Both the position numbers and the translations under genes were made by a program. 64,000 nucleotides of DNA, taken from IMG/VR virus record IMGVR_UViG_2974759174_000001; one strand, 5' to 3'. A model generated the notes under the pieces. That model did not search any database and was not told the origin of the DNA. It saw only the letters and a list, made by a program, of their open reading frames with translations. This stretch comes from Bixzunavirus cane17 (Duplodnaviria; Heunggongvirae; Uroviricota; Caudoviricetes). Shown here piece after piece: positions 3,441-61,331 of the stretch. Numbering within the stretch: the first letter of the stretch is position 1; each line of letters begins with the position of its first letter.

Positions 3441-3513
3441 GGGAGTGAAATCCCCTGTAGATGCGCTATAGTAAGGTAGTCTGAACACGCACACACTCAC
3501 CAAGGGAGACCAT
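3441..3513 (+). promoter_or_regulatory. conserved intergenic promoter-leader element (variant box GGGAGTGAAATCCCC, -10 TATAGT, CA-rich leader, AAGGGAG RBS)
   Basis: member of the repeated element family; see findings. Confidence 0.5.
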
Positions 3514-23606: not shown

Positions 23607-23616
23607 CCCTGCACAC

Positions 23617-23657
23617 GGCCCTCCCGGTCCCTCGAATAGGTAGAGGGATGGGAGGGC
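23617..23657 (+). promoter_or_regulatory. stem-loop with conserved loop TCGAATAGGTAGAG (hairpin family B) upstream of GTG 23662
   Basis: GGCCCTCCCGGTCCCTC / GAGGGATGGGAGGGC imperfect stem. Confidence 0.45.
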
Positions 23658-27663: not shown

Positions 27664-27689
27664 CGTAGTACATCCATGGAGGATGAAGC

Positions 27690-27942: not shown

Positions 27943-27943
27943 A

Positions 27944-28016: not shown

Positions 28017-28017
28017 C

Positions 28018-28091: not shown

Positions 28092-28458
28092 CTTTGGCTC
28101 GTTGACGTTGCTGCGCCTGGGTGTTGGCGGCAGTGCAGGCCTTGCACCGGCACTTGATCTTGGGGTTGCGATACCTCCCCACAGTTCCATGCTGGTGATA
28201 TCCCATGTCGTTCGCCGTCTTCTCCTGATGACAGGGCTCGCAAAGCACCTGACACTTGGTCAGCTCAGCTTCTCGCCGTGCGGCGCTCCAAGACCAGATC
28301 TTGTGGTCGACTTTCTGAGTCGGGTCGATGTGATCAAGTCGGAGATCTTCTGTGGCACCGCACTCCACACAGGACTTCCCTGCGAAGTACTCGGTTCGCC
28401 GTCGCGCCACCCATTCACGTTGATACTGGCGCTGGGCTTCGGGGTCCTTGTAGGGCAC
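28051..28458 (-). CDS. HNH homing endonuclease (135 aa); its 3' end overlaps the last tRNA on the opposite strand
   Basis: CVECG ... LDHIDP ... KCQVLCEPCH HNH motif; GTG start with GGGATAGGA RBS. Confidence 0.8.
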   Translation of the reverse strand: MPYKDPEAQRQYQREWVARRRTEYFAGKSCVECGATEDLRLDHIDPTQKVDHKIWSWSAARREAELTKCQVLCEPCHQEKTANDMGYHQHGTVGRYRNPKIKCRCKACTAANTQAQQRQRAKVPQAGIEPARTAF

Positions 28459-28504
28459 GGGTTCATCCTATCCCTGAGTACACATGGCGCAGTGCCGGTC
28501 TACA

Positions 28505-28514
28505 ACCTGTAGAA
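28505..28514 (+). promoter_or_regulatory. copy 1 of conserved motif tCAACCTGTAG, 68 bp upstream of the giant acidic-protein gene
   Basis: identical 10-mer also at 36596 and 39576. Confidence 0.35.
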
Positions 28515-28572
28515 AACCTACCGACCTGTTCTAACCAGTAGGAGCAACACCTTCTATCTGGCAGGAGCAGGG

Positions 28573-31500
28573 ATGAGTGACTTTGGTCTGTTCGAGGCGG
28601 CAGCTGACGCCGAACAGGAGCCGAGCCGTAAGCACCGGATCGCCGCGCGCAAAATGGCCGCAGCGCTGGTCGACGTGCACGCCAAGTTCGGGTCGTTCAT
28701 GACCAACGCTGACGGCGTCGACAACTTCGAGGACCGGTTCTCGATGAGTCGTCGTGACATCGCCAAGGTCATGGTGGCCCACGGTGTGGGCGCCTATCCG
28801 GCGGTGATGCGTGAGGTCCACGGCAGCCTCAAGAGCGCTTGGTACGAGAAGCACGCTGAGTTCGACGAAGACGCGGGCACCACCGAGGAGTCCAACTTCG
28901 AGGACGGCGATGACTCCGGCTCGGACAAGCCCGGCGGCAAGGAGGCCCGGCGCCGCAAGGTCGCTGAGGACCGCGACGCCCCGGTACAGGCCATCCAGGA
29001 GACCTACGCCCCGTCGGGCGGCAACTTGGTCCCCGAGGGTGACTTCGACGGCTACCTGGACCGAGTTGACCAGGGTGGTCCTGAGAACGTCAGTGGCCAC
29101 GACTTCACCCCCGGCGGCGACTCGGGTGTGGACTCCCACCACCACGAGGCCCGCCAGCTGGTGGCCGACCTCTACACCGACTGGGCCGAGAGCAATGGCC
29201 TCCGTGTCGCGTCGATGAACACCCTCGACGTCTACGCGGCCAACGGCCTGCACGACGACGACTACTACCTGCTGGCCGCGATGATCCGCAAGGCCGAGTG
29301 CGAGTGCGAGGACGACGACAAGGAAGAGTCCGACTCGGACGATTCCGACTCGGACAGCGATAGTGACTCGGACAGCGACTCGGACGACGACGTCGACGAG
29401 GACGGCCCCGAGGGTCCGGACACCGACAGCGACGGCCCGCCTGCGGGTGCTGCCGAGAAGGGCGGCGAGATCTCCGACGAGGGCGGATCCGAGGACGACT
29501 CCAATCCGTTCGACGGCGAGGATGAGGCCCCCGAAGAGGATGGCGAGGACTTCCCGGCAGACCCCAATGGCCTGGAGGACGCCGGTCCTCAGGACGCGCC
29601 CGTCGACGACGGCAGCGCTGGTGGCCAGGAGTTCACCGTCCCCGAGCAGGCCCCTGAGCTGCCACAGGACGAGATGAGCCAGCTGCAGGACTCCGGTCCA
29701 CAGAGCGTGCCGCCGGAGGTTATCGACGACATCCTGGGCCTGCCTCCGGGCACCCTGGAGCAGCTCATCGCCGAGGAACTCGGTCAGGCTGGCGGCGGCA
29801 CTCCGCCGCAAGGGTCGCCTCCGCAGTTGGCCCGCCGACGTCGTCAGGCGGCAGAGGACCCCACCGGGGCCGCTGAGTCTGCCGACCAGGGTGACGCAGC
29901 GGCGGCAGCAGCCCCGGCAGCCGCAGGCGCGGGCAGTGCTGGAGCCATCCCGCCGCCTGGATCGGCCTCGGTCGCTCCTCCGCCCGCACCGGCGCCGCTG
30001 GAGAACCAGCCCGCCGAGGACGCACTGCTGGACACCGCCGTCCAGTCGGTCACCCAGATGATCGACCGCGAGACCCAGGAGTACCAGCAGATCATCGACC
30101 CGCTGACGCAGGCCCTGCAGGCGATCGAGTTCGCCCAGCAGGTCGAGCAGGCCGAGAATCCGCTCGACGTCACCCCGCCCGAGGGCACCGTCGATGCCAG
30201 CCCGGCAGCAGCCCCTGGTGGCGCCAACAGCCTGCAGCAGCAGGCCAGCCACGCGCGGCGCATGATGGCGCGCACGGCAGGCATCGCCAAGCAGTTCGGC
30301 CTGACCAAGCGGGCCGAGGCCATGATGATCCACGCGATGAGCCGCAAGCACTACGAGCACGTGGCCGAGGCCATCCGTATGGTGCCGCCGGAGATGCGCG
30401 GTCCGGTCGCCGAGCACATTGGCGCGATGTTCCGTGAGGACAACCCCCGGTTCAACCACGACCTGTGGATGCAGCACGTCGCCGGAAACAGGCGCGCCAA
30501 GAGCACCGACGACTTCCACACCTACAACGACCGTGGCGGCGAGCCGGGTGATTACGAGCGCAACAACCGGGGCTACAGCGAGATCGGCAACGGCATGGTG
30601 CAGGACTGGGAGACCGGCGAGGTCTACCCGCACCCCGGACGCACTGCGGGCCGCTGGAACACCCCGCCGGGCGGGACGCCGTGGCTGGATGCCACCCCAG
30701 CGAGCCGCCGCCCTTTCGTCGTTAGCCGTACCGCCGGGGAGACCTGGAAGAACACGCCCACCATGGACGCGTTCGAGTTCCCCGGCCACGGCGAGACGCC
30801 GGAGATCTCCGACAACATGAAGATCAACGACCTGCCGAAGACGACCAAGAACGCCGCCCTCGACGTCGAGGCCAAGGGCGTGCTCGACATGTTCGACGAC
30901 TTCACCAAGAAGCGCACCGACAAGGGCCTGAACCTGGGCCCTGCGGCCAACGTCGAGACGTTCAAGCAGGAGAAGGGCGACAAGGTCGGTCCCAAGGCTC
31001 TCGACAAACTGGAGAAGACCATCGAGGCCAACCGCAAGGCGGCGTCGTTCTTCACCCGCAAGGTGCCGGGTTGGACCTGGAACGACCACCTGGCCGGGTA
31101 TGTCACCGACGCCCGTCGGCAGTTCATCTGCTCGTGCGGCGCCGGTATTGAGACGCCGAGCTATACCATGTGCCACTGCGGCAAGATCTGGAACAGCTAC
31201 GCGATCGGCGACACCCAGCACCTGGCCAGCGACTCCGCCGAGCAGTTCATCACCCGCGAGATCCCGGTCCGCAAGGACGTGATCCTGGCCAACCGTCAGA
31301 TGGCCGATGGGCCGCTTACCGGCGACGAGAGGCTGCCTCAGGACGACCCTGAGAGTCTGGCCTATCAGGACCGCCAGGGGATCTCGAACGCCCCTGGGTG
31401 GGGCACCTGGCCGCAGCATCAGATGAAGATGATCGTCGACAGCCCGGAGTTCCGTGTCCCGGAGCACTACTTGCCGGGTCGTGACCGAATGAGCCACAAG

Positions 31501-31995
31501 CAGGCCTGGACCTCTGACAGTGGCTGGACCCCGCCGGACCAGCGCGACGTCGACTGGGTCGAGGACGAGGACCGCGAGGACGCCGATGGCCCGCAGGCCC
31601 CGGGCAAGACTGCCGGTGCCTTCGACACCTACATGAACGGCCTGTCGCAGCTGCCGGAGTTCGACGAGTGGGCCATGGGCAGTGATCATGTCCCGGCGCC
31701 GGAGTCCACACCTGCTCCTCCAGCACCAGCACCGGCTCCCTCGCTCAAGGACCGGGTCCGCCAGCATCTGATCGACCGGATGAACCGCACCGGTCCTCCC
31801 GGAGGCTTCGCCGGTGGCCGCTCGGCCAAGCTCAAGGACGAGGACTACATCGTCAAGTACACCGACGATGAAGATCCGGCGCGTCGGTCCGGCCCAAAGA
31901 AGCCTCCGTCCACCACGATCAAGGGTGGAGATCAGAAGTGGCACTCTCGCGGTGATGGAGGGAAGTTCACGTCCACTTCTCCATTCGGTGAGTGA
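28573..31995 (+). CDS. giant acidic low-complexity protein (1140 aa) with an (SD)n repeat, Pro/Ala-rich linkers and a C-terminal SWIM-type zinc finger
   Basis: DSDDSDSDSDSDSDSDSDDD at about 29330-29390; CSCGAGIETPSYTMCHCG fits CxCxnCxH; high GC3; the opposite-strand 1190-aa ORF is a shadow. Confidence 0.8.
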   Translation: MSDFGLFEAAADAEQEPSRKHRIAARKMAAALVDVHAKFGSFMTNADGVDNFEDRFSMSRRDIAKVMVAHGVGAYPAVMREVHGSLKSAWYEKHAEFDEDAGTTEESNFEDGDDSGSDKPGGKEARRRKVAEDRDAPVQAIQETYAPSGGNLVPEGDFDGYLDRVDQGGPENVSGHDFTPGGDSGVDSHHHEARQLVADLYTDWAESNGLRVASMNTLDVYAANGLHDDDYYLLAAMIRKAECECEDDDKEESDSDDSDSDSDSDSDSDSDDDVDEDGPEGPDTDSDGPPAGAAEKGGEISDEGGSEDDSNPFDGEDEAPEEDGEDFPADPNGLEDAGPQDAPVDDGSAGGQEFTVPEQAPELPQDEMSQLQDSGPQSVPPEVIDDILGLPPGTLEQLIAEELGQAGGGTPPQGSPPQLARRRRQAAEDPTGAAESADQGDAAAAAAPAAAGAGSAGAIPPPGSASVAPPPAPAPLENQPAEDALLDTAVQSVTQMIDRETQEYQQIIDPLTQALQAIEFAQQVEQAENPLDVTPPEGTVDASPAAAPGGANSLQQQASHARRMMARTAGIAKQFGLTKRAEAMMIHAMSRKHYEHVAEAIRMVPPEMRGPVAEHIGAMFREDNPRFNHDLWMQHVAGNRRAKSTDDFHTYNDRGGEPGDYERNNRGYSEIGNGMVQDWETGEVYPHPGRTAGRWNTPPGGTPWLDATPASRRPFVVSRTAGETWKNTPTMDAFEFPGHGETPEISDNMKINDLPKTTKNAALDVEAKGVLDMFDDFTKKRTDKGLNLGPAANVETFKQEKGDKVGPKALDKLEKTIEANRKAASFFTRKVPGWTWNDHLAGYVTDARRQFICSCGAGIETPSYTMCHCGKIWNSYAIGDTQHLASDSAEQFITREIPVRKDVILANRQMADGPLTGDERLPQDDPESLAYQDRQGISNAPGWGTWPQHQMKMIVDSPEFRVPEHYLPGRDRMSHKQAWTSDSGWTPPDQRDVDWVEDEDREDADGPQAPGKTAGAFDTYMNGLSQLPEFDEWAMGSDHVPAPESTPAPPAPAPAPSLKDRVRQHLIDRMNRTGPPGGFAGGRSAKLKDEDYIVKYTDDEDPARRSGPKKPPSTTIKGGDQKWHSRGDGGKFTSTSPFGE

Positions 31996-32002
31996 GGGAC
32001 GA

Positions 32003-32473
32003 ATGACAGCTGTCGAGGATCGCTTTTGGTCCAAGATCGATGCATCTGATGGATGTTGGCTCTGGACGGGGTCTCTCACGCACAACGGATACGGTCGATT
32101 CAAGGTTGACGGGAAGATGGTCCGAGCACATAGGTTCGCCTATCAGATGATGATCGGCGACATCCCTGAAGGCATGGAGCTGGACCATCGGCACACCTGT
32201 CCCAAGAGGTGCGTCAATCCAGAACACCTGCGACTTGTAACGCACAAACGCAATCAGGAGAACCGGTCAGGAGCCATGAGAAACAGCTCCACCGGCATTC
32301 AAGGGGTGTATTGGGACAAGAGGAACTCCTGCTGGCATGCGCGGGTGGGACATCACGGCAAGCGCGTCCACGTGGGGCGTTTCTTGACCTCGGAAGAGGC
32401 TGAGGCTGCCGTTGTTGCCAAGAGGCTGGAACTCTTCACTCATAACGACGCAGACCGGTTGGTGACCGTATGA
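32003..32473 (+). CDS. HNH endonuclease with C-terminal AP2 DNA-binding domain (156 aa)
   Basis: DGCWLWTGSLTHNGYGRF ... ELDHRHTCPKRCVNPEHLRLVTHKRNQ (HNH_3); GIQGVYWDKRNSCWHARVGHHGKRVHVGRF (AP2). Confidence 0.8.
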   Translation: MTAVEDRFWSKIDASDGCWLWTGSLTHNGYGRFKVDGKMVRAHRFAYQMMIGDIPEGMELDHRHTCPKRCVNPEHLRLVTHKRNQENRSGAMRNSSTGIQGVYWDKRNSCWHARVGHHGKRVHVGRFLTSEEAEAAVVAKRLELFTHNDADRLVTV

Positions 32474-32838
32474 GGGACTTGTGCTTCGGGTGTAAGGGCT
32501 TCAAGGAGATCGTCCACACCGAGGGTGGGACGGGCCATCCTTACTGCCAGGACTGCGCCCTGATGCAGCCGCCGACGTCTGACGAGTGGGCGCTGGTCTT
32601 GCTCAACGCCCCTTGGTCGCCGTACTCGGCCCCGTTCAAGCCGGGCGACAAGGTGGAGGCCCGCACTGCGGGTCAGATCTTCGACGGGGTCGGCGAAGTC
32701 GTCGACATGTCCGTCTCGCTGGAACACGGGGGAACTCCCGTGTATCCGACGTTCAAAGTGGTCCTGGCAGAGAAGGCACACGACTTGGCCCCGGATGAGG
32801 CTTGGTACACCGAATGCTGCCTTACACGAGTGGAGTGA
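32470..32838 (+). CDS. hypothetical zinc-ribbon protein (122 aa)
   Basis: CFGCKG ... CQDC; ATGA coupling. Confidence 0.65.
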   Translation: MRDLCFGCKGFKEIVHTEGGTGHPYCQDCALMQPPTSDEWALVLLNAPWSPYSAPFKPGDKVEARTAGQIFDGVGEVVDMSVSLEHGGTPVYPTFKVVLAEKAHDLAPDEAWYTECCLTRVE

Positions 32839-32841
32839 TAC

Positions 32842-35800
32842 GTGAGTAGCCCCATCTACAAGGCCGGGTCCAACTGGTCGGCAGAGGTCAATCGCCTGCG
32901 CAAGGCGGGCGTGAACATGCCGAACAGCCCCACCATGGCCCGCGCCCAGGCTGCTGCGCTCCAGAACACCGTGGACAACAAGCCGCTGATCGACTACTTC
33001 CAGGGGCGCCGCCGCGCCGCCGAGGCCAACCGCCAGCGCCTGGCCAGCTACCGCAAGCAGGGCAACTTCGGCTCCAACATGCAGATCGCCATGCCCAAGA
33101 TCCGCCAGCCGCTGGGCACGCTGGCCGACAAGGGCATTCCGTTCAATGTCGAGGACGAAGAAGAGCTTCGGGTCATCAGACACTGGTGCAGACTCTTCTA
33201 TGCCACCCACGACCTGGTCCCGCTGCTCATCGACATCTACTCGAAGTTTCCGGTCGTCGGCATGGAGTTCGACTCCAAGGACCCGCTGATCAAGACGTTC
33301 TACGAGGACCTGTTCTTCGGCGAAGACCTCAACTACCTGGAGTTCCTGCCCGACCAGTTCGCGCGCGAGTACTTCACCGTCGGTGAGGTCACCTCGCTGG
33401 CGCACTTCAACGAGTCACTTGGCGTCTGGAGCTCCGAGGAGATCCTTAACCCCGACATGCTGCGTGTCAGCCGGTCGATGTTCGTCCAGCGCGAGCGTGT
33501 GCAGCTCATGGTCAAGGACCTCGTCGACCACCTGCGTCAGGGGCCGACCACGGCGGGCGGCAACATGTCGACCGTCGAGGAGACGCCGTCGGAGCGTGAG
33601 CAGCGGATGCGCGAGTTCCAGGACCTGCAGCGCCGCTACCCCGAGATCATCCAGGCCGCGATGCAGAACGACGGCCTCGACATCTCCGAGGCCCTGATCA
33701 GCCGCGTGGTCAACCGGCCCACCGCCTGGGCCACCCGGGGCGCCCCGCACCTGCTGCGCAGCTTCCGGACCCTGATGGCCGAAGAGTCGCTCAACGCCGC
33801 CCAGGACGCGGTGGCCGATCGCCTCTACAGCCCGCTGGTGCTGGCCACCCTGGGCATCGAGGACATGGGCGACGGCGAGCCGTGGATTCCCGACCAGGGC
33901 GAGCTCGACGAGGTCCGCGACGACATGCAGTCGCTGCTGGCCGCTGACTTCCGCCTGATGGTGCACAACTTCGGCCTCAAGGTCGAGAACGTGTTCGGGC
34001 GCGAGAGCGTGCCCAACCTCGACGCCGACTACGACCGCATCGAGCGCAAGCTGCTGCAGGCCTGGGGCATCGGTGAGGCGCTGATCTCCGGCGGCACCGG
34101 TGGCGCCTACGCCTCCAGCGCGCTCAACCGTGAGTTCGTCACCCAGATCATGACAGGCTTCCAGAACGCTCTCAAGCGCCACATCCGGCGCCGGTGCGAG
34201 GTGGTCGCCGAGGCGCAGGGTCACTATGACTACGACCTCAAGGGCGGGGTCCGCGTCCCGATCTACCGCGAGATCGTCGAGTACGACGAGGAGACCGGCC
34301 AGGAGTACATCCGCAAGGTCCCCAAGCTGCTCATCCCGGAGATCAAGTTCTCCTGCGTGGTTCCTGGCACCCAGGTTCTCACCCCGACCGGCCAGCGCAG
34401 CGTCGAGGACATCCAGCCTGGCGACGAGGTCATCGCCTGGGACGGCACCGGCTACGTCATCGACACCGCCCTACACACCGGCATCGAGCATCGCGACCGT
34501 CTGGTCGAGGTGACCACTGCGACCGGACGCACGGTGCGCTGCACCGCCGATCACCCGTTCTGGACTGACCGGGGATGGGTGCTGGCTGAGAACCTCACTA
34601 CCGACAGTCTGATTCGCACGTCTGCCGGTCAGTTGGCGGCGCACATCGAGTCTGATGACGACCTGGACATGCTGCGGTTTCTGGGTCTGCTGGTTGGTGA
34701 CGGCAACTACTCGACCACCCATGTGTCGCTTTCGGTCAGCGACCCCGAGGTGGATGCGTTCGTCTGCGAGCAGGCCGAGCGGATGGGCCTGACCGCCCGA
34801 CGGAAGGCCGATGCTCGCACCGACAAGGTGTGGTACCGGACGTTCGTCCGGCCCGCGCCGTGGAAGGGCAACGCGCTCCGCAACCCGCTGCACACGCTGC
34901 TGCGCGAGCAGGGCATGTGGGGCAAGAATGCCCACACCAAGCGGGTGCCGCCGATGGTGTGGGCGGCGGGGGCCAAGGGGCGCGCGGCGTTCCTGTCCGG
35001 CTACTTCGACGCGGACGGCTACGCCTGCCGCACCTCCGGCCTCAAGATCACGTCGGTCAACCGCCTCCTGCTGGACGACTGCCAGGTGCTGTTTGAGTCG
35101 CTGGGCATCCGCGCCCAGGTGCGCTCTTACGCCTACCGCTACGACGGCCAGAAGAACCCCGGCGTGCAGTCGGTCAACCACTTGACGGTCAGCAACAACC
35201 ACTACTTCCAGATGCTGCGGGACACCCTGTCGCCGGTAATCGGCAGCAAAACCGCCGCACTAGACGACATGGCCCGCCCGTCCACGCGGGGCCGGAAGGC
35301 TCCGCGCCCGGTGGAGTGGGATCAGGTCACGTCGGTGACCCACCTGGCTGAGGGCGGCGACATCGTCACCCTGGGCATCACCAGCACCCATACTCATGTC
35401 ACGGCGGGCCTGGTGTCGCACAACACGCTCAACCTGCGTGACGAGGCCCAAGAGCGTGCCTTCATCGCCCAGCTCAAGGGCATGGGCGTGCCGGTCAGCG
35501 ACAAGACGCTGGCGGTCAACATCGACATGAAGTTCGACCAGGAGCTGGAACGTCAGGCCGACGAGACCGTGCAGAAGCTCATGGCCACCGCACAGGCCAT
35601 GAAGAAGGTCCAGGACCTGTGCGACGCGCAGAACCTGCCCTACCCGCCGGAGCTGGCCCAGCACCTGCAGTCCACTCTGGCGCTGCGCCAGGGCAAGACC
35701 CAGACCGAGCTGGGCGAGGCCCAGGCGGTCGCGGGCGGGGCTCAGGCCGAACTGCAGACCAAGCAGATCGAGATGCAGGAAATGATGATGGACCAGCAGA

Positions 35801-36537
35801 TGGCCGGTGGGGTGATGCCCGGCCAACCGATGCTGCCCCCGGGCGCTGCCGGTCCGCCTCCGGGTGCTCCCGGCGATCCTGCTGCCGGTGGCCCGCCCCC
35901 GCCCGCCGGTGGTCCGATGGGCGGTCCTCCGGTGGCCCCGGCGCCTGGCGTCGCCGGGCCGGGCAACGCCCCGGCGAGCTTCTACGCGGCCAGCCTGCGC
36001 ACGGCGGACGCCATCAACGGCCCGACCGGCACCGGCCCGTCGGCAGACGGCCCGCTGGGTCCGACCGGCCCCGAGTTGCCGCCCGGTGTGCCCGAGCCGA
36101 CTGAGGTCCCGCGTAACCGTCAGCGTCCGGCGGAGTCCGACGACAACCATCCGGGTGGCAACCTCAAGCCCGCCAGCCGGAACCGCAAGCGCACCCGCAA
36201 AGGCCAGGAGGAGCCCCGTCGGCTCACCCGCTGGGAGAAGGGTCCCTCCAGCTACGGCAAGAGCAAGATGGCTTCCGAGGAGCATGTGGTTGCTCAGATC
36301 CGTCGGCGCGAGGTCGTTGCCAACTGGGACTGGTCACAGTTTGGTAACGCTCCCCGCGTTGCTGACTTGGTAGCTGACCCGCACTTTTACCAGGCCACCA
36401 ACATGCAGGCGTATCAGGGACAGTTGCAGGCTGACTGGCCCGAGATCCAGGCCGGTGGCGCCGAGGAGAGCCGCCGGATTCTGGACGATATGCTCAGCCA
36501 GTTTCAAGAGATCTTTGGTGTCGAACCGCAGTGGTAA
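32842..36537 (+). CDS. putative portal (head-tail connector) protein interrupted by an intein; 1231-aa precursor, 874-aa extein; no Walker A motif, so not a terminase
   Basis: intein starts CVVPGTQVLT after EIKFS and ends VSHN followed by T; Pro/Gly-rich C-terminus; the portal call is an inference from size and position. Confidence 0.6.
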   Translation: MSSPIYKAGSNWSAEVNRLRKAGVNMPNSPTMARAQAAALQNTVDNKPLIDYFQGRRRAAEANRQRLASYRKQGNFGSNMQIAMPKIRQPLGTLADKGIPFNVEDEEELRVIRHWCRLFYATHDLVPLLIDIYSKFPVVGMEFDSKDPLIKTFYEDLFFGEDLNYLEFLPDQFAREYFTVGEVTSLAHFNESLGVWSSEEILNPDMLRVSRSMFVQRERVQLMVKDLVDHLRQGPTTAGGNMSTVEETPSEREQRMREFQDLQRRYPEIIQAAMQNDGLDISEALISRVVNRPTAWATRGAPHLLRSFRTLMAEESLNAAQDAVADRLYSPLVLATLGIEDMGDGEPWIPDQGELDEVRDDMQSLLAADFRLMVHNFGLKVENVFGRESVPNLDADYDRIERKLLQAWGIGEALISGGTGGAYASSALNREFVTQIMTGFQNALKRHIRRRCEVVAEAQGHYDYDLKGGVRVPIYREIVEYDEETGQEYIRKVPKLLIPEIKFSCVVPGTQVLTPTGQRSVEDIQPGDEVIAWDGTGYVIDTALHTGIEHRDRLVEVTTATGRTVRCTADHPFWTDRGWVLAENLTTDSLIRTSAGQLAAHIESDDDLDMLRFLGLLVGDGNYSTTHVSLSVSDPEVDAFVCEQAERMGLTARRKADARTDKVWYRTFVRPAPWKGNALRNPLHTLLREQGMWGKNAHTKRVPPMVWAAGAKGRAAFLSGYFDADGYACRTSGLKITSVNRLLLDDCQVLFESLGIRAQVRSYAYRYDGQKNPGVQSVNHLTVSNNHYFQMLRDTLSPVIGSKTAALDDMARPSTRGRKAPRPVEWDQVTSVTHLAEGGDIVTLGITSTHTHVTAGLVSHNTLNLRDEAQERAFIAQLKGMGVPVSDKTLAVNIDMKFDQELERQADETVQKLMATAQAMKKVQDLCDAQNLPYPPELAQHLQSTLALRQGKTQTELGEAQAVAGGAQAELQTKQIEMQEMMMDQQMAGGVMPGQPMLPPGAAGPPPGAPGDPAAGGPPPPAGGPMGGPPVAPAPGVAGPGNAPASFYAASLRTADAINGPTGTGPSADGPLGPTGPELPPGVPEPTEVPRNRQRPAESDDNHPGGNLKPASRNRKRTRKGQEEPRRLTRWEKGPSSYGKSKMASEEHVVAQIRRREVVANWDWSQFGNAPRVADLVADPHFYQATNMQAYQGQLQADWPEIQAGGAEESRRILDDMLSQFQEIFGVEPQW
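34354..35424 (+). mobile_element. intein (357 aa) with LAGLIDADG homing endonuclease domain inside the putative portal gene
   Basis: Cys1 TGC 34354; block B TADHPFWT; LAGLIDADG motifs LRFLGLLVGDGNYS and AAFLSGYFDADGYA; terminal HN 35419-35424, +1 Thr. Confidence 0.75.
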
Positions 36538-36595
36538 TTGTCTTCCTCGTCAATGAAACTTTAGGGTGACCTGGCCAGGGGTGGAGTGCTATTCT

Positions 36596-36605
36596 CAACC
36601 TGTAG
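36596..36605 (+). promoter_or_regulatory. copy 2 of motif tCAACCTGTAG in the low-GC intergenic island
   Basis: identical 10-mer. Confidence 0.35.
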
Positions 36606-36643
36606 TCGAATCAAAGTGATCGACGGTTCGAGGGGTCAGTTCA

Positions 36644-37003
36644 TTGCACGCAGACGTAGACGTCGTGGCCGAATTTGAGATCGGTCTCGAATTGCCAGAC
36701 GGCACACAGATATTTCCACCCGAAACCTTCCGAGGCAGGTCGCTAGCCACTCCTGAAGACCGAAAGGTCATTCATGACTCTTTGCTGGTGGCCATGGATA
36801 ACATGGGTTATCCCCGGTCTCGAGCCCTGGAGGACTACCACTGGGTCCGGCGCGAGACCGAGGTTGTAACCATCAGGCGCTCTATAGCGATCAACCGGTT
36901 GGCGATCGACGACGGGTTCGTCATCTCCAGTCCCGAGAGCGCCGATGCGATCGTTGAAAACGAGACTTCTGGACCGCCGGGTCCGGACGGAGATAGTGGC
37001 TGA
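36644..37003 (+). CDS. hypothetical protein (119 aa) with atypical codon usage (low GC3); possible recently acquired moron
   Basis: TTG start with GAGGGG RBS; many A/T-ending codons, unlike neighbours. Confidence 0.45.
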   Translation: MHADVDVVAEFEIGLELPDGTQIFPPETFRGRSLATPEDRKVIHDSLLVAMDNMGYPRSRALEDYHWVRRETEVVTIRRSIAINRLAIDDGFVISSPESADAIVENETSGPPGPDGDSG

Positions 37004-37073
37004 GACCCTCCTAACCACTCGCTGAGCGGCTCGAATAGATGTCCACTTCTCCATCTATTTGAGAGGACGACCT

Positions 37074-37229
37074 CATGCTCGTTCTTGGCATCATCCTGCT
37101 GCTCCTGGGCTACCTGCTCGGAGTTCACGTCCTGTTCATCATCGGCGCCATCCTTGCGGCTGTCGGCGCCCTGCTGCTGGTTCTCGGCGGTCTGGGACGC
37201 CCGGTCGGCGGTCGCCGGTACTGGTACTA
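37074..37229 (+). CDS. small membrane protein (51 aa, two TM helices)
   Basis: RBS GAGAGGA; MLVLGIILLLLGYLLGVHVLFIIGAILAAVGALLLVLGGL; the track's alternative frame is Cys/Ser-rich off-frame. Confidence 0.45.
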
Positions 37230-37294
37230 ACCACCGGCCCGGGAATAGTTCCTGGGCCCCTTCCACCCACACCAAGTGAAGAAACGGGAGCAAA

Positions 37295-38761
37295 GTGCTC
37301 GATATTCAGTTCACCGATGAGATTGTCGTCGAGGTGCTCGACAGCAACTTCTCCGACAGCCGGGTCTGCGTGGCAGCCCGGACGTCGACAGCAGGTGCTG
37401 GCGCCGATGACAGCGAGCGCTACGGGCTGATCAACGCCCTGATGCGTGACCGTCACGGCACGCCGTTCGAGCACATGAACGCGACCTTCCGGGTGACCGC
37501 GCCGATCTTCGTCTGGCGCGAGCACCACCGGCACAGGTCGGGCTTCTGCGTTGCAGGGTCCACCCGCGTGCCTGTTGGTTCCGGCAAGGACGGCAGGACC
37601 AAGACCATCGAGGACATCTACCGTGACTGGCACCTGGGGGTCCCCGATTCGTTGGGGAGGAACAGGAAGCTGCCAAGCTGTCGCAACCTTGCTACCCGAA
37701 CGGTCAACCTCGACACCGGATTGGTGGAAGCCGCCCGCATGGTCGACGTCTTCCAGTCAGGCGTCAAGCCGATGATCTGGCTGCGGTGGGAGAACGGCAA
37801 GGGGCTCCGGTGTACTCGGGAGCATCGAGTGTGGACTCCCGAGGGTTGGGTCAAAGCGGGCGACCTGCAGGTCGGTGACTTGGTCGGTCGCATCGGTCTG
37901 GTCGCCTACGGCGAGGCTCCCCGCTTCTACTCCAAGAAGCTGCGCGAGGGTATCGGCATCTGGACTTCGCAGCAGCGCGATCTGATCCAGGAGGTGGACA
38001 CCTGTCATCGCTGCGAGGGGGTGTTCTCCAAGAGTGATCTGGAACTCGATCATGTCATTCCGGTCTGTGAAGACCTCAAGCTGGCGCTGGACAGGGATAA
38101 TCTCGCTCCGATCTGTGCTCCCTGCCATGACGTCAAGTCTCGTGAGGAGACGTCACGCAATTACGAGAACCGCCGCCAGCGTGCCAATGGTGTGCGATTC
38201 GAGAAGGTGACGTCCATCGAGGACGGCGGCGAGGAGATGACTTACGACCTGGAGATGCCGGGTCCGTATCACAACTTCATTGCCAATGGTCTGGTTGTTC
38301 ACAACAGCTACAACGAGGAGTCCGGGCGCTACAAGCAGCTCGATCCGGTCTTCTACGTCCCCGGAGAGACCCGACCGATCGCCAAGGTCGAGGGCACCCG
38401 AAACATGGACTACGTCCTGGAGAAGGGCACTGCCGACCAGCACGCCCTGATCGCCAACGCGATGTGGGCCACCTGTTCTGGTGCCTATCGCCAGTACGAG
38501 GCCATGCTCGACGCGGGCATCGTGCGCGAGGTCGCACGCATGGTCCTCCCGGTGAACATCATGAGCACCTGCATCGTGACCTGCAACGCGCGGTCGCTGA
38601 TGCACTTCCTGTCGTTGCGGCAGCGCCACGACGACGCCAAGTTCCCCAGCAAGCCCCAGTACGAGATCAACTTGGTCGCCAATGGGTACGAGCGGCTGCT
38701 GGCCGAAGAAGCACCGTTGGTGCACCGCAGTTATGTCGAAAACGGGCGAGTCGCCCCGTAG
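37295..38761 (+). CDS. thyX: flavin-dependent thymidylate synthase ThyX interrupted by an HNH-type intein (488-aa precursor, 235-aa extein)
   Basis: ThyX signature REHHRHRSGF then intein then SYNEESGRY (RHR-x7-S motif split by the intein). Confidence 0.85.
   Translation: MLDIQFTDEIVVEVLDSNFSDSRVCVAARTSTAGAGADDSERYGLINALMRDRHGTPFEHMNATFRVTAPIFVWREHHRHRSGFCVAGSTRVPVGSGKDGRTKTIEDIYRDWHLGVPDSLGRNRKLPSCRNLATRTVNLDTGLVEAARMVDVFQSGVKPMIWLRWENGKGLRCTREHRVWTPEGWVKAGDLQVGDLVGRIGLVAYGEAPRFYSKKLREGIGIWTSQQRDLIQEVDTCHRCEGVFSKSDLELDHVIPVCEDLKLALDRDNLAPICAPCHDVKSREETSRNYENRRQRANGVRFEKVTSIEDGGEEMTYDLEMPGPYHNFIANGLVVHNSYNEESGRYKQLDPVFYVPGETRPIAKVEGTRNMDYVLEKGTADQHALIANAMWATCSGAYRQYEAMLDAGIVREVARMVLPVNIMSTCIVTCNARSLMHFLSLRQRHDDAKFPSKPQYEINLVANGYERLLAEEAPLVHRSYVENGRVAP
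37547..38305 (+). mobile_element. mini-intein with HNH endonuclease domain (253 aa) inserted in the ThyX active-site motif
   Basis: Cys1 TGC 37547; HNH CHRCEGVFSKSDLELDHVIPV ... CAPCH; ends LVVHN then Ser+1. Confidence 0.8.
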
Positions 38762-38781
38762 CCGCTTTGGAGGACACAGTC

Positions 38782-39030
38782 ATGCCTATCATCCGCAACA
38801 TCAGCTACCACACCATCCAGACTCACCATGCCGACGAAGCCGAGTCCCTGGCGTTCTATCTCAACGAGCACGGAGTTTGTGCTCAAGCCAAGGGTGACGC
38901 CATCGACGTCCCGGTGCCGGACCGAGAGACCTTCGACAAAGTCGAGAAGCTCAAGGAGACCTGGGAGATGTTCTGGGAGACCTCGGACTCGGGTTTGTTC
39001 GGCCTGCCTCTTTATGTAAAGGAGGGCTAG
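38782..39030 (+). CDS. hypothetical protein (82 aa)
   Basis: RBS GGAGGA. Confidence 0.6.
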   Translation: MPIIRNISYHTIQTHHADEAESLAFYLNEHGVCAQAKGDAIDVPVPDRETFDKVEKLKETWEMFWETSDSGLFGLPLYVKEG

Positions 39031-39585
39031 GTGGAGTTCGTTGCCGACGACCGAATCCCGCCGGGCTATCACATCCCATCATCGTGGATGTTGCGTTCTG
39101 CCGACGCCGAACAGGCCAAGCAGACCGGCGGCATGGTCGCGCTCTATCCCTCGACGGAGTCGGCGCAGAAGATCGTGGTGCCCGGCGGGGAACCGATCGA
39201 CGACCTGCACCTGACGGTCACCTACTTCGGGCAGGACGTCACCGGGCAGGACCCGACCGAGCTGGTCGACTTCCTGTACTACCTGGCCCCGCAGTTCCCG
39301 CCGATCGAGGCGAACATCTTCGGCACGGCGGTGTTCAACTCGACCGGCGAGGACCCCTGCATCGTCTACCTGGTCGGCAACTCTCCGCACCTGACGCCGC
39401 TCTTCCAGCAACTCAAGCGGTTCGCGCTGGAACACTACCCCGGCGCTGCCGAGCAGCACGATCCGTGGATTCCGCACATCACTGCGGCCTACGGCTCAGG
39501 GGCGATGATCGACTACGAGGGCCCGGTGGTCTTCGACCGCATCGGCATCCGCTGGCCTGGCGCTGATCAGGACTTCAACCTGTAG
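39031..39585 (+). CDS. 2H-phosphoesterase superfamily protein (LigT-like 2'-5' RNA ligase / cyclic phosphodiesterase), 184 aa
   Basis: two H-x-T/S-x motifs HLTVTY and HITAAY at the expected spacing; RBS AAAGGAGGG. Confidence 0.7.
   Translation: MEFVADDRIPPGYHIPSSWMLRSADAEQAKQTGGMVALYPSTESAQKIVVPGGEPIDDLHLTVTYFGQDVTGQDPTELVDFLYYLAPQFPPIEANIFGTAVFNSTGEDPCIVYLVGNSPHLTPLFQQLKRFALEHYPGAAEQHDPWIPHITAAYGSGAMIDYEGPVVFDRIGIRWPGADQDFNL
39576..39585 (+). promoter_or_regulatory. copy 3 of motif tCAACCTGTAG (overlaps the LigT stop codon)
   Basis: identical 10-mer. Confidence 0.35.
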
Positions 39586-39595
39586 TAGGCCCAAG

Positions 39596-39631
39596 TTCCT
39601 CCTCGAATGGATAGGAGCCTTCGAGGAGGAA
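39596..39631 (+). promoter_or_regulatory. RBS-sequestering hairpin TTCCTCCTCGAA-tggataggagcc-TTCGAGGAGGAA (family B) upstream of ATG 39634
   Basis: 12-bp perfect stem; the 3' arm is the SD. Confidence 0.5.
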
Positions 39632-39633
39632 CA

Positions 39634-42600: not shown

Positions 42601-43437
42601 GACGCCTCCACTCCGGGCGGGTTCGACCTGAGCCAGTTCAACGACACCATCAGCGGTGTCGGGGACGCGGTGAACACCGGCGTCGGTATCGCCAGCGACA
42701 TCGCCGGTGGTGTGGGTGACGTGGTCAGCGGCATCGGCTCGATCTTCAGCTCGCGTCAGGACTACGACGACTGGCACCGCTACGCCTACCCCGAGGCGGG
42801 CGACCACAAGCCGTTCGCCGGTTCGGGCCCGCAGGAGCCGCTGAAGTTCACCCCGTCGACCGAGTACGCCGACAAGGCCCGCCGGAAGATGGACGACGTC
42901 ACCGACCTGGACTACGACCACAGCAAGCCGGTCAATCCCCGACAGTCGTCGGCGGGCGGCGGCATCCAGCGCGCCGGACGTGGCGCGCGCCGGACGGTCG
43001 AGCCGGTGGTGGTCCGCGAGCAGCGTCCGGGTGGGCGTGTAGCCGCGCAGCAGCCCCACGTGCCGGACGACTTCGACCCACTGGCCCCGCGCACGGCGGC
43101 GAGCTTCGACGACCCGTACGACGCTCCTGATGTCGATCAGGCCGCAATGCGCATCGCGGCCAACACCGAGGGCGACATCGTCGCGGCCTTCCAGCGCAGC
43201 GCCGGAGCCGAAGCCATCATGTCCAGCTCGGGTGGCGGCGCAGCGAGCCAGTACGACGACTTCTCCTCGTCGCCTGCGGTGATCGCGGCCATGCAGCGCA
43301 CCGCCGGACGGCACTACTCGCCATCGGAGCAGGCCGAGCTGATCCGCGAGGGCGACCGTGGCGGGGCCGGAAACCTCGACGCGCTGGACCTGCGCGGAAC
43401 TCACTACGAGGCAGAGCACAGCGTCGGCCTGTGGTGA
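39634..43437 (+). CDS. giant virion-associated-like protein (1267 aa) with Gly/Ala-rich hydrophobic segment, SWIM zinc finger and LysM peptidoglycan-binding domain; candidate internal/ejection protein
   Basis: SWIM CACEWGKW ... RLCSHGYAA; LysM YQIQSGDTLSDIAQRAGYGGDYNSLAQQNNIADPDKIFAGDTINIG; GAGAGAAAGGAGAGLGGAVAGG. Confidence 0.8.
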   Translation: MATVYTDYGPGEIIASETVRGRTQYQVRVAGYGEFWLDATKVGSVHEAWAPLDTDNSVNLPYDPSPQYPALPGDTESTIQPIHEIDADERLSPADSITFEDRSDDESIIDGHSDNFAKSAAYGDPTTSEPGYSHGLEWDAPERSEYAHPDFKHFHDDQYEEEDPLQQAMAEEDGAPDWHPSDQYGDLNKPYPADTWRGSHPDLPGHMASSHEAAAFLIPLMGAGAGAAAGGAGAGLGGAVAGGVARGVGMGVAQDMLGGGGDGQQEPGMVDQAIDTIQPGPGWGELQKGAALDRWLSGQDQGTGTAAGLGDRYIDVTAAVDPSDPISMFRHDPVAYISRTGHVHDEPVSEEMQHYGQLVEANPQIREAAWKDVRAKAMRLRREGRVHVKDVAPDRIYASVDGDHGTYEVMIAKGGAFGGLGGGHAISNWRCACEWGKWAFQRRMTYVGRLCSHGYAAYLTMQSEHMKGKPSQRRRSPYRKRADALQNGPQRLVPELAVNDLDDAHTFLDVTEDERKETGPDDIVSEKDIVHFSRLMAKCDAERLPYPRTLVAFLERYADDQSKEDWKIEDTGKAGPALEELRDWADTSQEDYLGNMEERVEDIRDAVDTAREHGVDASQLTAGVHFRTAAPKPEVTSDGSGGKIQQTRQFSRDPGTSISDWLGVGGTPGAAGTRSNGAGQSMNQSRDSGGVQDTDSTQAKSSGGGFDPNMNDRSNRPVSEGGGATNGTPAGWSAADAASPGSNNGPHGAAGSATNPTPGQPGNNTPAVPGAAPKNNLAGPAGTNTPSATPPGGGQIGQGEYQIQSGDTLSDIAQRAGYGGDYNSLAQQNNIADPDKIFAGDTINIGTPGGGATTPDVDLSAATPGGGADANNTASDFAGTSTSGATDSMGTNNTPTDNAAAQTTTETNKTGRRRRQAAPSGSSATPAPSTTPDDEGLVDSMDNPAAPTGGTPASNTALSSPNNDLGDPSSAIDTGATTGGTPDATGAGTDASTPGGFDLSQFNDTISGVGDAVNTGVGIASDIAGGVGDVVSGIGSIFSSRQDYDDWHRYAYPEAGDHKPFAGSGPQEPLKFTPSTEYADKARRKMDDVTDLDYDHSKPVNPRQSSAGGGIQRAGRGARRTVEPVVVREQRPGGRVAAQQPHVPDDFDPLAPRTAASFDDPYDAPDVDQAAMRIAANTEGDIVAAFQRSAGAEAIMSSSGGGAASQYDDFSSSPAVIAAMQRTAGRHYSPSEQAELIREGDRGGAGNLDALDLRGTHYEAEHSVGLW

Positions 43438-43472
43438 CCACGACGACCGCCTAGAAGAAGAGAGGAGGTGTC

Positions 43473-53160: not shown

Positions 53161-53325
53161 ATGGAGCGCTACCTGTTCGCCGGAAGCGAGTTGACCCGCG
53201 ACGAACTGGAGAAGGCTTTGGCTCCAGAGCTGGACGAACTTAACGCCGCCCAGGGCACCAAGATCGGCTTCGACGAATACCTGGCCGCAGCTCTGAACAC
53301 CGGCACCATCACCGAGATCCTGTAA
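53161..53325 (+). CDS. possible small protein (54 aa)
   Basis: GAGGAGG upstream; not in track. Confidence 0.4.
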   Translation: MERYLFAGSELTRDELEKALAPELDELNAAQGTKIGFDEYLAAALNTGTITEIL

Positions 53326-53337
53326 GGCGGGGCGGGA

Positions 53338-53359
53338 CCTCCTCTAATAGGTGAGGAGG
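53338..53359 (+). promoter_or_regulatory. RBS-sequestering hairpin CCTCCTCTA-atagg-TGAGGAGG (family B) upstream of ATG 53369
   Basis: stem plus conserved loop. Confidence 0.55.
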
Positions 53360-58323: not shown

Positions 58324-58331
58324 ACACCCTG

Positions 58332-58380
58332 CCGAAGGCCCCTTCAGCCACTCGAATTAATGAGTGGAAGGAGGGGCCTT
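58332..58380 (+). terminator. nested hairpins GAAGGCCCCTTC ... CCACTC-gaattaat-GAGTGG ... GAAGGAGGGGCCTTC whose 3' arm carries the next RBS
   Basis: inverted repeats. Confidence 0.4.
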
Positions 58381-61260: not shown

Positions 61261-61331
61261 ACCCTGTGGGAAGCGGTCGCAGGATTCTGAACCAGTGAGG
61301 GCAGTAAACCCCCACTAGTGAAGGAGTCAAG

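What the first reader, a model, noticed from the sequence alone, without database searches (positions are those of the whole stretch)
28505..39585. Triplicated 11-mer tCAACCTGTAG 48-68 bp upstream of three late-module genes
The exact 10-mer CAACCTGTAG occurs three times, at 28505, 36596 and 39576, always on the + strand and preceded by T. Each copy lies 48-68 bp before a gene start: the giant acidic protein, the low-GC moron and the 1267-aa protein. This is far above the chance expectation for a 10-mer in 64 kb. It is a candidate late promoter or regulatory site. The third copy is encoded within the stop region of the LigT gene.
Basis: seen in the sequence. Interest (0 to 1): 0.55.

Follow-up and report, generated by a model that had tools for sequence, protein, structure and literature searches.

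The report
Upstream box of phage late promoters
The repeated 10-mer is real and contains the conserved upstream box (CCTGTAG) of an apparently undescribed family of promoter-like signals that sit in front of the virion and lysis genes of Bxz1-like mycobacteriophages, a useful but not surprising kind of element.

Summary
The window is bases 1-64000 of Mycobacterium phage Cane17 (cluster C1, Bixzunavirus). CAACCTGTAG occurs exactly three times, all on the + strand. The starts are 28503 (not 28505), 36596 and 39576. Only two copies are preceded by T. A fourth copy lies outside the window at 153229.

The conserved core is CCTGTAG, not the 10-mer. At copies 1 and 3 it is the upstream half of a bipartite motif: CCTG(T/C)N, exactly 18 nt, then TCGAAT-nn-GTAGG. 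At least 12 such sites exist in Cane17, all on the gene strand and just upstream of genes. Those genes include sheath, minor tail, lysin A and the protease-capsid operon. The motif recurs at orthologous genes in diverged relatives: 36 hits on the gene strand and 0 on the other in 23 metagenomic loci, and 13 versus 0 in Myrna.

Copy 2 belongs to a second architecture: CCTRTAG, exactly 6 nt, then a SigA-like -10 hexamer (7 sites versus 0).

Most bipartite sites lie inside a hairpin whose 3' arm holds the Shine-Dalgarno sequence. This resembles T4 genes e, soc and I-TevI, where only promoter-initiated transcripts are translatable.

No transcript data exist, so promoter function is inferred (confidence about 0.6). 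No description was found in the held literature.

The parts
28503..28512 (+). Copy 1 of CAACCTGTAG (preceded by A).
28506..28543 (+). Bipartite late-type motif before gp76: CCTGTA (28506-28511), 18-nt spacer, TCTAAC (28530-35), ca, GTAGGA (28538-43). gp76 starts at 28573.
   Evidence: PWM 28.1 bits. Same layout upstream of gp76 orthologs in L016, L018-L020, L023, L027 and L030.
28525..28571 (+). Predicted hairpin that pairs CCTGTTCT with the Shine-Dalgarno region (AGGAGCAGG) of gp76.
   Evidence: dG -24.7, z -4.2; z -5.2, SD-paired probability 0.81
36596..36605 (+). Copy 2 of CAACCTGTAG (preceded by T).
36599..36617 (+). Second architecture before gp80: CCTGTAG, 6 nt (TCGAAT), then the -10-like hexamer CAAAGT. 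gp80 starts at 36644 (TTG).
   Evidence: this architecture occurs 7 times at spacing 6 on +, 0 on -, and 0-1 at any other spacing. The box is conserved after the portal gene in L013, L019, L020 and Myrna.
39576..39585 (+). Copy 3 of CAACCTGTAG. Its TAG is the stop codon of gp84 (2H/LigT-like).
39579..39616 (+). Bipartite late-type motif before gp85: CCTGTA, 18 nt, TCGAAT (39603-08), gg, ATAGGA (39611-16).
   Evidence: 29.9 bits. Conserved upstream of gp85 orthologs in 12 or more relatives and in Myrna gp96.
39595..39632 (+). 13-bp hairpin GTTCCTCCTCGAA / TTCGAGGAGGAAC. The 5' arm covers the spacer and the start of TCGAAT. The 3' arm holds the Shine-Dalgarno sequence of gp85 (ATG at 39634).
   Evidence: dG -25, z -5.0; all 12 orthologous leaders fold with the SD paired
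23608..23645 (+). Bipartite motif before gp65 (CCTGCA-N18-TCGAAT-agGTAGAG), inside a strong hairpin.
   Evidence: 27.6 bits, z -5.6
43428..43465 (+). Bipartite motif before gp86 (protease-like, first gene of the capsid operon).
   Evidence: conserved in L011, L012, L019, L026 and Myrna gp97
45938..45975 (+). Bipartite motif inside gp86. It is followed by a Shine-Dalgarno sequence and an in-frame ATG at 45999.
   Evidence: 20.8 bits; conserved in L011, L012, L014, L019, L030 and Myrna
53319..53356 (+). Bipartite motif before gp95 (CCTGTA-N18-TCTAAT-agGTGAGG), inside a hairpin that sequesters the SD.
   Evidence: z -6.0, SD paired 1.0; Myrna gp102
58328..58365 (+). Bipartite motif before gp104, inside a double hairpin.
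   Evidence: 30.9 bits, z -6.5; Myrna gp110
61263..61300 (+). Bipartite motif before gp108.
   Evidence: 24.9 bits; Myrna gp115
3454..3472 (+). Second-architecture site before gp9 (CCTGTAG-N6-TATAGT). Further sites of this class are at 6291, 19599 and 22411.

Best explanation
CAACCTGTAG carries the upstream recognition box, A-N-CCTGT(A/G)G, of phage-specific promoters of Bxz1-like (Ceeclamvirinae) actinophages.

At copies 1 and 3 the box sits exactly 18 nt upstream of a -10-like block, TCGAAT-nn-GTAGG. Together they form a bipartite promoter that drives virion, assembly and lysis genes late in infection. It is probably read by host RNA polymerase carrying or helped by a phage-specified factor, because it does not resemble the SigA consensus.

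The -10-like block lies in the loop and 5' arm of a hairpin whose 3' arm is the gene's Shine-Dalgarno sequence. Transcripts reading through from upstream would therefore be translationally silent. Transcripts started at the promoter would lack the 5' arm and be translated. This is the logic shown for T4 genes e, soc and I-TevI.

At copy 2 the same box is combined with a SigA-like -10 hexamer 6 nt downstream. That defines a second promoter class, possibly a middle or factor-modulated class.

Shown here: the motif, its fixed spacings, strand bias, position, conservation and folding potential. Inferred: transcription initiation, timing, the factor, and translational gating.
For: 1. Fixed spacing. 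With a loose three-block pattern, spacer 18 gives 8 hits on + and 0 on - in Cane17. It gives 9 on + and 0 on - in distant relatives. Every other spacer from 10 to 27 gives 0-2.

2. PWM hits in Cane17: 20 on + versus 1 on -. The strong ones lie 6-40 nt before gp65, 76, 85, 86, 95, 104, 108, 119 (sheath), 163 (minor tail), 235 and 239 (lysin A).

3. Independent genomes. There are 36 hits on the gene strand and 0 on the other in 23 IMG/VR loci with 58-99% portal identity, at orthologous genes. Myrna (another genus) has 13 versus 0 in its first 100 kb. Ten or eleven of those lie upstream of orthologous late genes, although Myrna has no copy of the 10-mer.

4. Hairpins. The 5' regions of the 15 motif genes have mean z -2.76, dG -19.2 kcal/mol and SD-paired probability 0.65. 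The 63 other genes have -0.11, -9.4 and 0.44 (Mann-Whitney p = 1e-4, 1e-5, 1e-3). The eight most structured leaders in the genome are all motif genes. All 12 gp85-ortholog leaders pair their SD.

5. The T4 precedent is documented in PMC3014915.

6. No SigA-type consensus promoter and no Rfam family lies at the three sites.

7. Second architecture: CCTRTAG-N6-(T/C)A(T/A/C)A(G/C)T occurs 7 times versus 0 at spacing 6 only, plus 3 versus 0 in Myrna.

8. A clade-conserved protein, gp208, has a sigma-70 region-4-like helix-turn-helix and is a weak candidate reader of the box.
Against: - No transcript 5' ends or expression timing are available for any cluster C phage in the held literature.
- Neither block matches a known mycobacterial sigma consensus.
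- No complete sigma factor or RNA polymerase was found in the 26 proteins scanned.
- gp208 is below Pfam's threshold, its fold matches have Foldseek E > 0.1, and it lacks a sigma region 2.
- The column-wise covariation test of the hairpin is inconclusive: 67% of cells paired, and 64 of 500 shuffles reach the observed score. The anti-SD arm sits in different registers in different relatives.
- Some sites (gp91, gp131, gp81, gp66) keep the downstream block but have a poor box.
- Copy 4 (gp248) has the box but neither partner at the expected spacing.
- The reverse complement CTACAGG is also enriched in intergenic DNA (5 versus 0.70 expected), and a few sites are palindromic. This fits a protein-binding operator as well as a promoter element.
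Confidence: 0.6

Rival explanations
1. RNA-level element. The box and the hairpin loop are read in the mRNA, not the DNA. A 5'-UTR operator or processing site would be bound or cut by a phage or host protein that controls translation or stability of late messages. This is comparable in spirit to the cluster K start-associated sequences.
For: Strong, SD-containing hairpins accompany most sites. The loop sequence is conserved while the stems vary. The gp85 site contains GGATAGGAGCC, matching 11 of 13 bases of the cluster K SAS GGGATAGGAGCCC, which was proposed to act in translation initiation (PMC3203893). Strand specificity is equally expected for an RNA element.
Against: The 18-nt distance between the two blocks is invariant although stem length and register vary. 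That suits recognition on B-form DNA better than on a folded RNA. The conserved site inside gp86 has no hairpin (z -0.7). If the whole hairpin were always in the message, the most abundant virion proteins would have sequestered ribosome sites of -20 to -35 kcal/mol. No Rfam family matches.
Confidence: 0.2
2. Operator for a phage DNA-binding regulator. CTGTAG would be a half-site bound by a phage helix-turn-helix protein that represses or blocks transcription, like cluster A stoperators, rather than being part of a promoter.
For: Several intergenic sites carry CTGTAG and CTACAG as inverted repeats, for example 5460-5478 (ACTGTAG-gttca-CTACAGT, just before gp14) and 93078-93094. The reverse complement is enriched in intergenic DNA. 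In 7 sites the box lies in the spacer of SigA-like promoters, where a bound protein would interfere with polymerase. The phage has several small HTH proteins.
Against: At the late-type sites the box is single, strictly oriented, and locked to a second, non-palindromic block 18 nt away. A symmetric operator would show neither property. Cluster C phages have no annotated repressor or integrase in the records read.
Confidence: 0.12
3. Recombination scar or chance. The repeats would be junctions left by insertion of mobile cassettes, with the 12-bp identical TCAACCTGTAGT flanking the variable gp80-gp84 block, and would have no regulatory role.
For: Copies 2 and 3 flank a 3-kb block. Relatives L008, L014-L016, L021 and L030 lack its genes gp80-82 and gp84. 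Copy 1 abuts a variable segment: Cane17 has an HNH endonuclease ORF there, whereas L011 and L012 have a tRNA end.
Against: The core box is conserved in relatives that lack these junctions. It also occurs at 10 or more other genes with fixed partners and strict orientation. Shuffles expect 0.05 copies. Recombination at shared promoters would explain the mosaic junctions without removing the regulatory role.
Confidence: 0.03

Closest known systems
T4 late promoters embedded in RBS-sequestering hairpins (genes e, soc, 49, I-TevI)
   Same: A promoter element lies in the DNA that encodes the 5' strand or loop of a hairpin. The 3' strand of that hairpin holds the Shine-Dalgarno sequence or start codon. 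Only promoter-initiated transcripts are then translatable (PMC3014915). Cane17 lysin A (gp239) has this layout, as T4 lysozyme does.
   Different: The sequence is unrelated: T4 uses TATAAATA alone, read by gp55. The Cane17 motif is bipartite with an upstream box. The layout is found at most late-type sites rather than at a few genes. Nothing here is shown experimentally.
Sigma-70-family bipartite promoters (-35/-10), including phage-specified sigma systems such as SPO1 gp28 and gp33/34 (recalled from memory)
   Same: Two conserved blocks sit at a fixed 18-nt spacing. They are co-oriented with the downstream genes and lie just upstream of them.
   Different: Neither block matches SigA (TTGACA / TANNNT) or any mycobacterial sigma consensus I could test. 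A third conserved block (GTAGG) follows the -10-like hexamer. No phage sigma factor was identified.
T4 middle promoters (MotA box plus sigma-70 -10 element; recalled from memory)
   Same: Copy 2 and six other sites combine a phage-specific upstream box with a host-type -10 hexamer at fixed spacing.
   Different: The box sits about -25 to -19 (6 nt from the hexamer), not at -30. No MotA or AsiA homologs are known here. Not tested.
Cluster K mycobacteriophage start-associated sequences (SAS/ESAS)
   Same: These are short, oriented repeats upstream of many genes of a mycobacteriophage. They contain AGGAG and are sometimes joined to inverted repeats. Their function is unknown (PMC3203893). The gp85 site shares 11 of 13 bases with the SAS.
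   Different: SAS lie 3-7 bp from the start codon and only at non-structural genes. Their inverted repeats do not support RNA pairing. The Cane17 motif lies 15-45 nt from starts, at structural and lysis genes, and has an upstream partner at fixed spacing.

Membership tests
Sigma-70-family bipartite promoter | Two conserved sequence blocks separated by a fixed spacer of about 16-19 bp. | tested here: met
   Spacer is exactly 18: 8 versus 0 hits in Cane17 and 9 versus 0 in distant relatives; other spacers give 0-2.
Sigma-70-family bipartite promoter | Oriented with, and located shortly upstream of, the transcribed genes. | tested here: met
   Hits on gene strand versus opposite strand: 20 versus 1, 36 versus 0, 13 versus 0. 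Sites lie 6-40 nt before starts.
Sigma-70-family bipartite promoter | Transcription starts 5-9 nt downstream of the -10 element and depends on a sigma factor. | not testable with these tools
   No 5'-end or expression data were found.
Host SigA (housekeeping) promoter | Match to TTGACA-N16-18-TATAAT / TANNNT. | tested here: not met
   There is no + strand consensus site in 27400-40000. TCGAAT and TCTAAC lack the A2/T6 pattern in register. Only copy 2 has a -10-like CAAAGT, and it has no -35.
T4-type late promoter inside an RBS-sequestering hairpin | A stable hairpin pairs the Shine-Dalgarno sequence or start codon of the gene. | tested here: met
   z -2 to -6.5 at 10 of 16 sites; SD-paired probability 0.65 versus 0.44 in other genes, p = 1e-3.
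T4-type late promoter inside an RBS-sequestering hairpin | The promoter lies within the 5' strand or loop, so that its transcripts lack the 5' strand. | tested here: inconclusive
   The geometry fits: TCGAAT is in the loop or 5' arm. The start site itself is inferred, not mapped.
T4-type late promoter inside an RBS-sequestering hairpin | T4 late consensus TATAAATA read by gp55/gp33. | tested here: not met
   The sequence is different. A search for gp55 or gp33 homologs was not made.
Cluster K SAS/ESAS | 13-bp GGGATAGGAGCCC located 3-7 bp upstream of start codons of non-structural genes. | tested here: not met
   Only the gp85 site resembles it (11 of 13 bases), and it lies 18 nt from the ATG. 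The family consensus is TCGAAT-nn-GTAGG, at structural and lysis genes.
Structured RNA family (Rfam) | Match to a curated covariance model. | tested here: not met
   Only tRNAs and chance-level hits were found in 27000-48000 at E <= 1.
Conserved RNA hairpin (covariation-supported) | Compensatory changes at aligned base pairs. | tested here: inconclusive
   67% of cells paired, 2 pairs with double changes, 64 of 500 shuffles reach the observed score. Stems sit in different registers, so the support is thermodynamic only.
Sigma factor (candidate reader gp208) | Sigma region 2 plus region 4 domains. | tested here: not met
   Only a region-4-like helix-turn-helix was found. Pfam Sigma70_r4_2 scores E = 7e-5, 22.8 bits against a cutoff of 25.7. 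Best local fold matches are ECF sigma region 4 (TM 0.6-0.75 over about 60 residues), with Foldseek E > 0.1. No region 2 was detected.

The most novel reading that the evidence does not exclude
A whole clade of large actinophage myoviruses (Bixzunavirus, Myrnavirus, related Gordonia phages and many uncultured relatives) runs its post-early programme through one phage-specified DNA-reading factor. The factor could be the conserved sigma-region-4-like protein gp208. It would recognise A-N-CCTGTAG and be combined with two alternative core elements to give two temporal promoter classes. Nearly the entire late regulon would also be translationally gated by promoter-embedded hairpins. That would be a regulon-wide version of a trick known only for a few T4 genes.
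Probability: 0.2. Interest if true: 0.65.

Novelty: new member of a known kind. Interest (0 to 1): 0.45.

Why it matters
Late promoters of mycobacteriophages are acknowledged to be almost uncharacterised, yet they are highly active and wanted as expression tools (PMC9262239). Nothing was found on transcription signals of the roughly 200 sequenced cluster C phages.

A defined consensus with fixed spacing, conserved across genera, gives precise predictions for start sites, mutational tests and a candidate factor.

It also explains several local features:
- Late genes have unusually structured leaders.
- Mosaic junctions and cassette insertions cluster at these boxes.
- gp86 carries an internal expression signal.

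It is an incremental finding about a known kind of element, not a new principle.

Tried and rejected
- **Exact-pattern scan of IMG/VR.** CCTGT-N19-TCGAATAGGT gave 31 stretches. Almost all are low-GC, unrelated contigs with a single hit, so this is the chance level and uninformative.
- **Column-wise covariation of the gp85-leader hairpin.** Inconclusive, because the anti-SD arm is in different registers.
- **Single-protein search for sheath loci.** It found only two close relatives. Myrna was used for the independent test instead.
- **Literature searches.** Searches for cluster C, Bxz1, I3 and Bixzunavirus transcription or promoters found nothing relevant.
- **Pfam, PHROG and NCBIfam scans of 26 candidate proteins for a sigma factor or polymerase.** Only the weak gp208 hit appeared. 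The PDB sequence search for gp208 found nothing significant.
- **CCTGTAG as a -10 element with the start upstream of the hairpin.** Rejected as the main reading, because every late message would then have its ribosome site locked in a stem of -20 to -35 kcal/mol.
- **Downstream block as a second copy of the box.** AACCTGTAG and AACCAGTAG lie 29 nt apart at copy 1. Noted, but the resemblance is limited to GTAG at most sites.
- **N4-type hairpin promoters.** Considered and not supported. Loops are 6-12 nt and no virion polymerase was identified. This was not tested in depth.
Full report
**Identity of the window.** The window is identical to bases 1-64000 of Mycobacterium phage Cane17 (MH697579 / NC_054716). 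This is a 160,330-bp cluster C1 myovirus of the genus Bixzunavirus. About 200 close relatives are in GenBank. Coordinates coincide with the record. Almost all genes are on the + strand.

**The observation.** CAACCTGTAG occurs at 28503, 36596 and 39576, all on the + strand. Dinucleotide shuffles expect 0.05 copies.
- The 11-mer with a leading T is present only at copies 2 and 3.
- The downstream genes are gp76 (1140 aa, no family), gp80 (119 aa, DUF7316) and gp85 (1267 aa, with a LysM domain).
- Copy 3 ends with the stop codon of gp84, a LigT-like 2H protein at sub-threshold score.
- The rest of the genome holds one more copy, at 153229. It overlaps the stop of gp247, 31 nt before polynucleotide kinase. 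None lies on the - strand.

**A control tempers the statistics.** 1256 distinct 10-mers occur at least 3 times on the + strand of this window, so multiplicity alone is not unusual. Only 17 of them have all copies within 80 nt upstream of gene starts. Fifteen of the other 16 belong to the early promoter and leader family. In an unbiased intergenic 7-mer ranking, CCTGTAG is among the top dozen: 9 observed versus 1.09 expected.

**What the motif really is.** I fetched 23 related loci from IMG/VR with the portal protein (58-99% identity). I mapped the orthologs and read the regions upstream of the gp76 and gp85 orthologs and downstream of the portal.

The flanks are diverged, but a bipartite pattern stands out. 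It reads CCTGTA(G/A), about 18-19 nt, then tcGAAnnGGTAG, followed by the Shine-Dalgarno sequence. The 'CAA' prefix is found only in the two close C1 genomes. Elsewhere the box is preceded by A at -2, as in gACCCTGTAG or aATCCTGTAG.

Within Cane17 the same pattern, with a spacer of exactly 18 nt between the hexamers CCTG(T/C)N and (T)(C)(G)AA(T), lies before these genes:
- gp65, gp76 (copy 1) and gp85 (copy 3)
- gp86, gp95, gp104 and gp108
- gp119 (tail sheath) and gp163 (minor tail)
- gp235 and gp239 (lysin A)
- one site inside gp86

Weaker versions lie before gp66, gp81, gp91, gp123 and gp131.

**Specificity of the bipartite motif.**
- A spacing histogram is sharp. Spacer 18 gives 8 hits on + and 0 on - in Cane17, and 9 versus 0 in the distant relatives. 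All other spacers give 0-2.
- A PWM from the Cane17 sites finds 36 hits on the gene strand and none on the other strand of the 23 related loci, at orthologous places.
- In Myrna (subcluster C2, a different genus, first 100 kb) the PWM finds 13 hits versus 0. Ten or eleven lie before orthologous late genes: the gp85, gp86, gp95, gp104 and gp108 orthologs, sheath, the gp131 ortholog and the internal gp86 site.
- Myrna has no copy of the 10-mer itself.

**Copy 2 is different.** Here CCTGTAG is followed directly by TCGAAT and then CAAAGT. It belongs to a second architecture: CCT(G/A)TAG, exactly 6 nt, then (T/C)A(T/A/C)A(G/C)T. That hexamer keeps the A2 and T6 of a SigA-type -10.
- This pattern occurs 7 times at spacing 6 on the + strand of Cane17: 3454, 6291, 19599, 22411, 36599, 132012 and 152273.
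- It never occurs on the - strand and essentially never at other spacings.
- It occurs 3 times in Myrna.
- The box after the portal gene is conserved in L013, L019, L020 and Myrna.

Copy 4 (gp248) has the box but neither partner at the expected spacing.

**Hairpins.** Ten of 16 bipartite sites fold into strong hairpins (z from -2 to -6.5). The 5' arm lies in the spacer and the start of TCGAAT. The conserved GAATAGGT-like sequence lies in the loop. The Shine-Dalgarno sequence lies in the 3' arm.
- The 5' regions of the 15 motif genes have mean z -2.76, dG -19.2 kcal/mol and SD-paired probability 0.65.
- The 63 other genes with intergenic spacers have -0.11, -9.4 and 0.44.
- The differences are significant (p = 1e-4, 1e-5, 1e-3).
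- The eight most structured leaders of the genome are all motif genes.
- All 12 orthologous gp85 leaders pair their SD, with different stems.
- A column-wise covariation count is inconclusive, because the anti-SD arm occupies different registers.

**Mechanism proposed.** A fixed 18-nt spacing that does not follow hairpin geometry argues for recognition of double-stranded DNA by a sigma-like protein. So do the strict orientation and the position before genes. Together these point to a promoter.

Placing the -10-like block inside the hairpin reproduces the arrangement documented for T4 genes e, soc, 49 and I-TevI. There, read-through transcripts have a sequestered ribosome site, and transcripts from the embedded late promoter lack the 5' strand and are translated (PMC3014915). 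Lysin A of Cane17 has this layout, as T4 lysozyme does.

The motif does not match the SigA consensus or any Rfam family, so a phage-specified factor is likely. Scanning 26 candidate proteins gave one lead, gp208 (record 124781-125650).
- It is conserved across the clade.
- It has a sigma-70 region-4-like helix-turn-helix: Pfam E = 7e-5, below the family cutoff, plus weak ECF sigma hits in NCBIfam.
- Its AlphaFold model has pLDDT 84.
- Its best local fold matches are ECF sigma region 4 domains bound to -35 DNA, but with Foldseek E > 0.1.
- It has no region 2.

This is a hint, not a finding.

**Rivals.**
- An RNA-level operator or processing site fits the hairpins and the partial resemblance to cluster K start-associated sequences. 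It fits the invariant spacing and the hairpin-less internal site poorly.
- An operator for a phage repressor-like protein fits the few palindromic CTGTAG/CTACAG sites and the enrichment of the reverse complement. It does not fit the oriented bipartite sites.
- A recombination scar fits the 12-bp identity flanking the variable gp80-84 block and the mosaic junction at copy 1. It cannot explain conservation elsewhere.

**Novelty.** The held literature contains no description of cluster C transcription signals. A 2022 review states that few mycobacteriophage late promoters have been characterised. The element is therefore probably an undescribed member of a familiar class, phage-specific promoters with T4-like translational gating. 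It is not a new kind of system. All functional statements await 5'-end mapping and reporter tests.

Noticed in passing
window 9302-9375, 9625-9699, 10925-11012, 11442-11532, 12253-12326, 15883-15962, 49900-49971, 52858-52926, 58116-58203 and others: An early-promoter-like family: GGGAATGA(A/T)(T)CCC ... GTTATACT/GTTATAGT, followed by a CA-rich leader (CACTCACACA ... AAGGAG) before many small genes. A few of these genes (gp90, gp93, gp103) lie inside the structural region. Its words dominate the list of enriched intergenic 7-mers and 10-mers.
   Followed up: partly
window 28054-28458, - strand: An unannotated 135-aa ORF is an HNH endonuclease (phrog_4234, E = 1.3e-51). It fills the 480-bp 'gap' between tRNA-Leu and gp76. 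In relatives L011 and L012 a tRNA 3' end abuts the box instead, so copy 1 sits at a mosaic junction.
   Followed up: partly
window 43473-47195 (gp86), internal site 45938-46001: The gp86 N-terminus matches a head maturation protease (phrog_18299, E = 5e-19). A conserved promoter-like motif, Shine-Dalgarno sequence and in-frame ATG at 45999 would give a nested 398-aa C-terminal product. This resembles a lambda C/Nu3-type protease-scaffold pair. The signal is conserved in L012, L014, L019, L030 and Myrna.
   Followed up: partly
window 32842-36537 (portal gp79) and 37295-38761 (ThyX gp82): Relatives, including the 99%-identical L011, match portal residues 1-506 and 858-1231 only, and ThyX residues 1-150 and 338-488 only. 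Cane17 therefore carries inserts of about 350 aa and about 190 aa in these genes (inteins suspected).
   Followed up: no
outside the window: record 124781-125650 (gp208; L007 12781-13650): A clade-conserved protein with a sigma-70 region-4-like helix-turn-helix (LPPRQREAFELICLKGY...). Many relatives have a 180-200-aa form. It is a possible reader of the CCTGTAG box.
   Followed up: partly
window 5460-5478; record 93078-93094, 115264-115310, 131569-131590: CTGTAG and CTACAG occur as inverted repeats with short spacers, for example ACTGTAG-gttca-CTACAGT immediately before the gp14 start. These are possible operators or hairpins using the same hexamer.
   Followed up: no
window 36595-36606 and 39575-39586: Twelve identical bases (TCAACCTGTAGT) flank the gp80-gp84 block. 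Its genes gp80-82 and gp84 are missing in relatives L008, L014-L016, L021 and L030. Promoter boxes may serve as recombination points for cassette exchange.
   Followed up: partly
window 39607-39609: An in-frame ATG inside the TCGAAT block gives a 1276-aa ORF. The annotated gp85 start at 39634 has the strong Shine-Dalgarno sequence GAGGAGG and is conserved in relatives, so the annotated start looks right.
   Followed up: yes
window 48774-48830 and 50610-50650: GC-rich hairpins followed by T-runs (ccccctccttcgggagggggtcttttctt after the major capsid gene; ggccccttctccggagggggtctcttc before gp91) look like intrinsic terminators. The gp91 one is followed at once by the downstream promoter block.
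   Followed up: no
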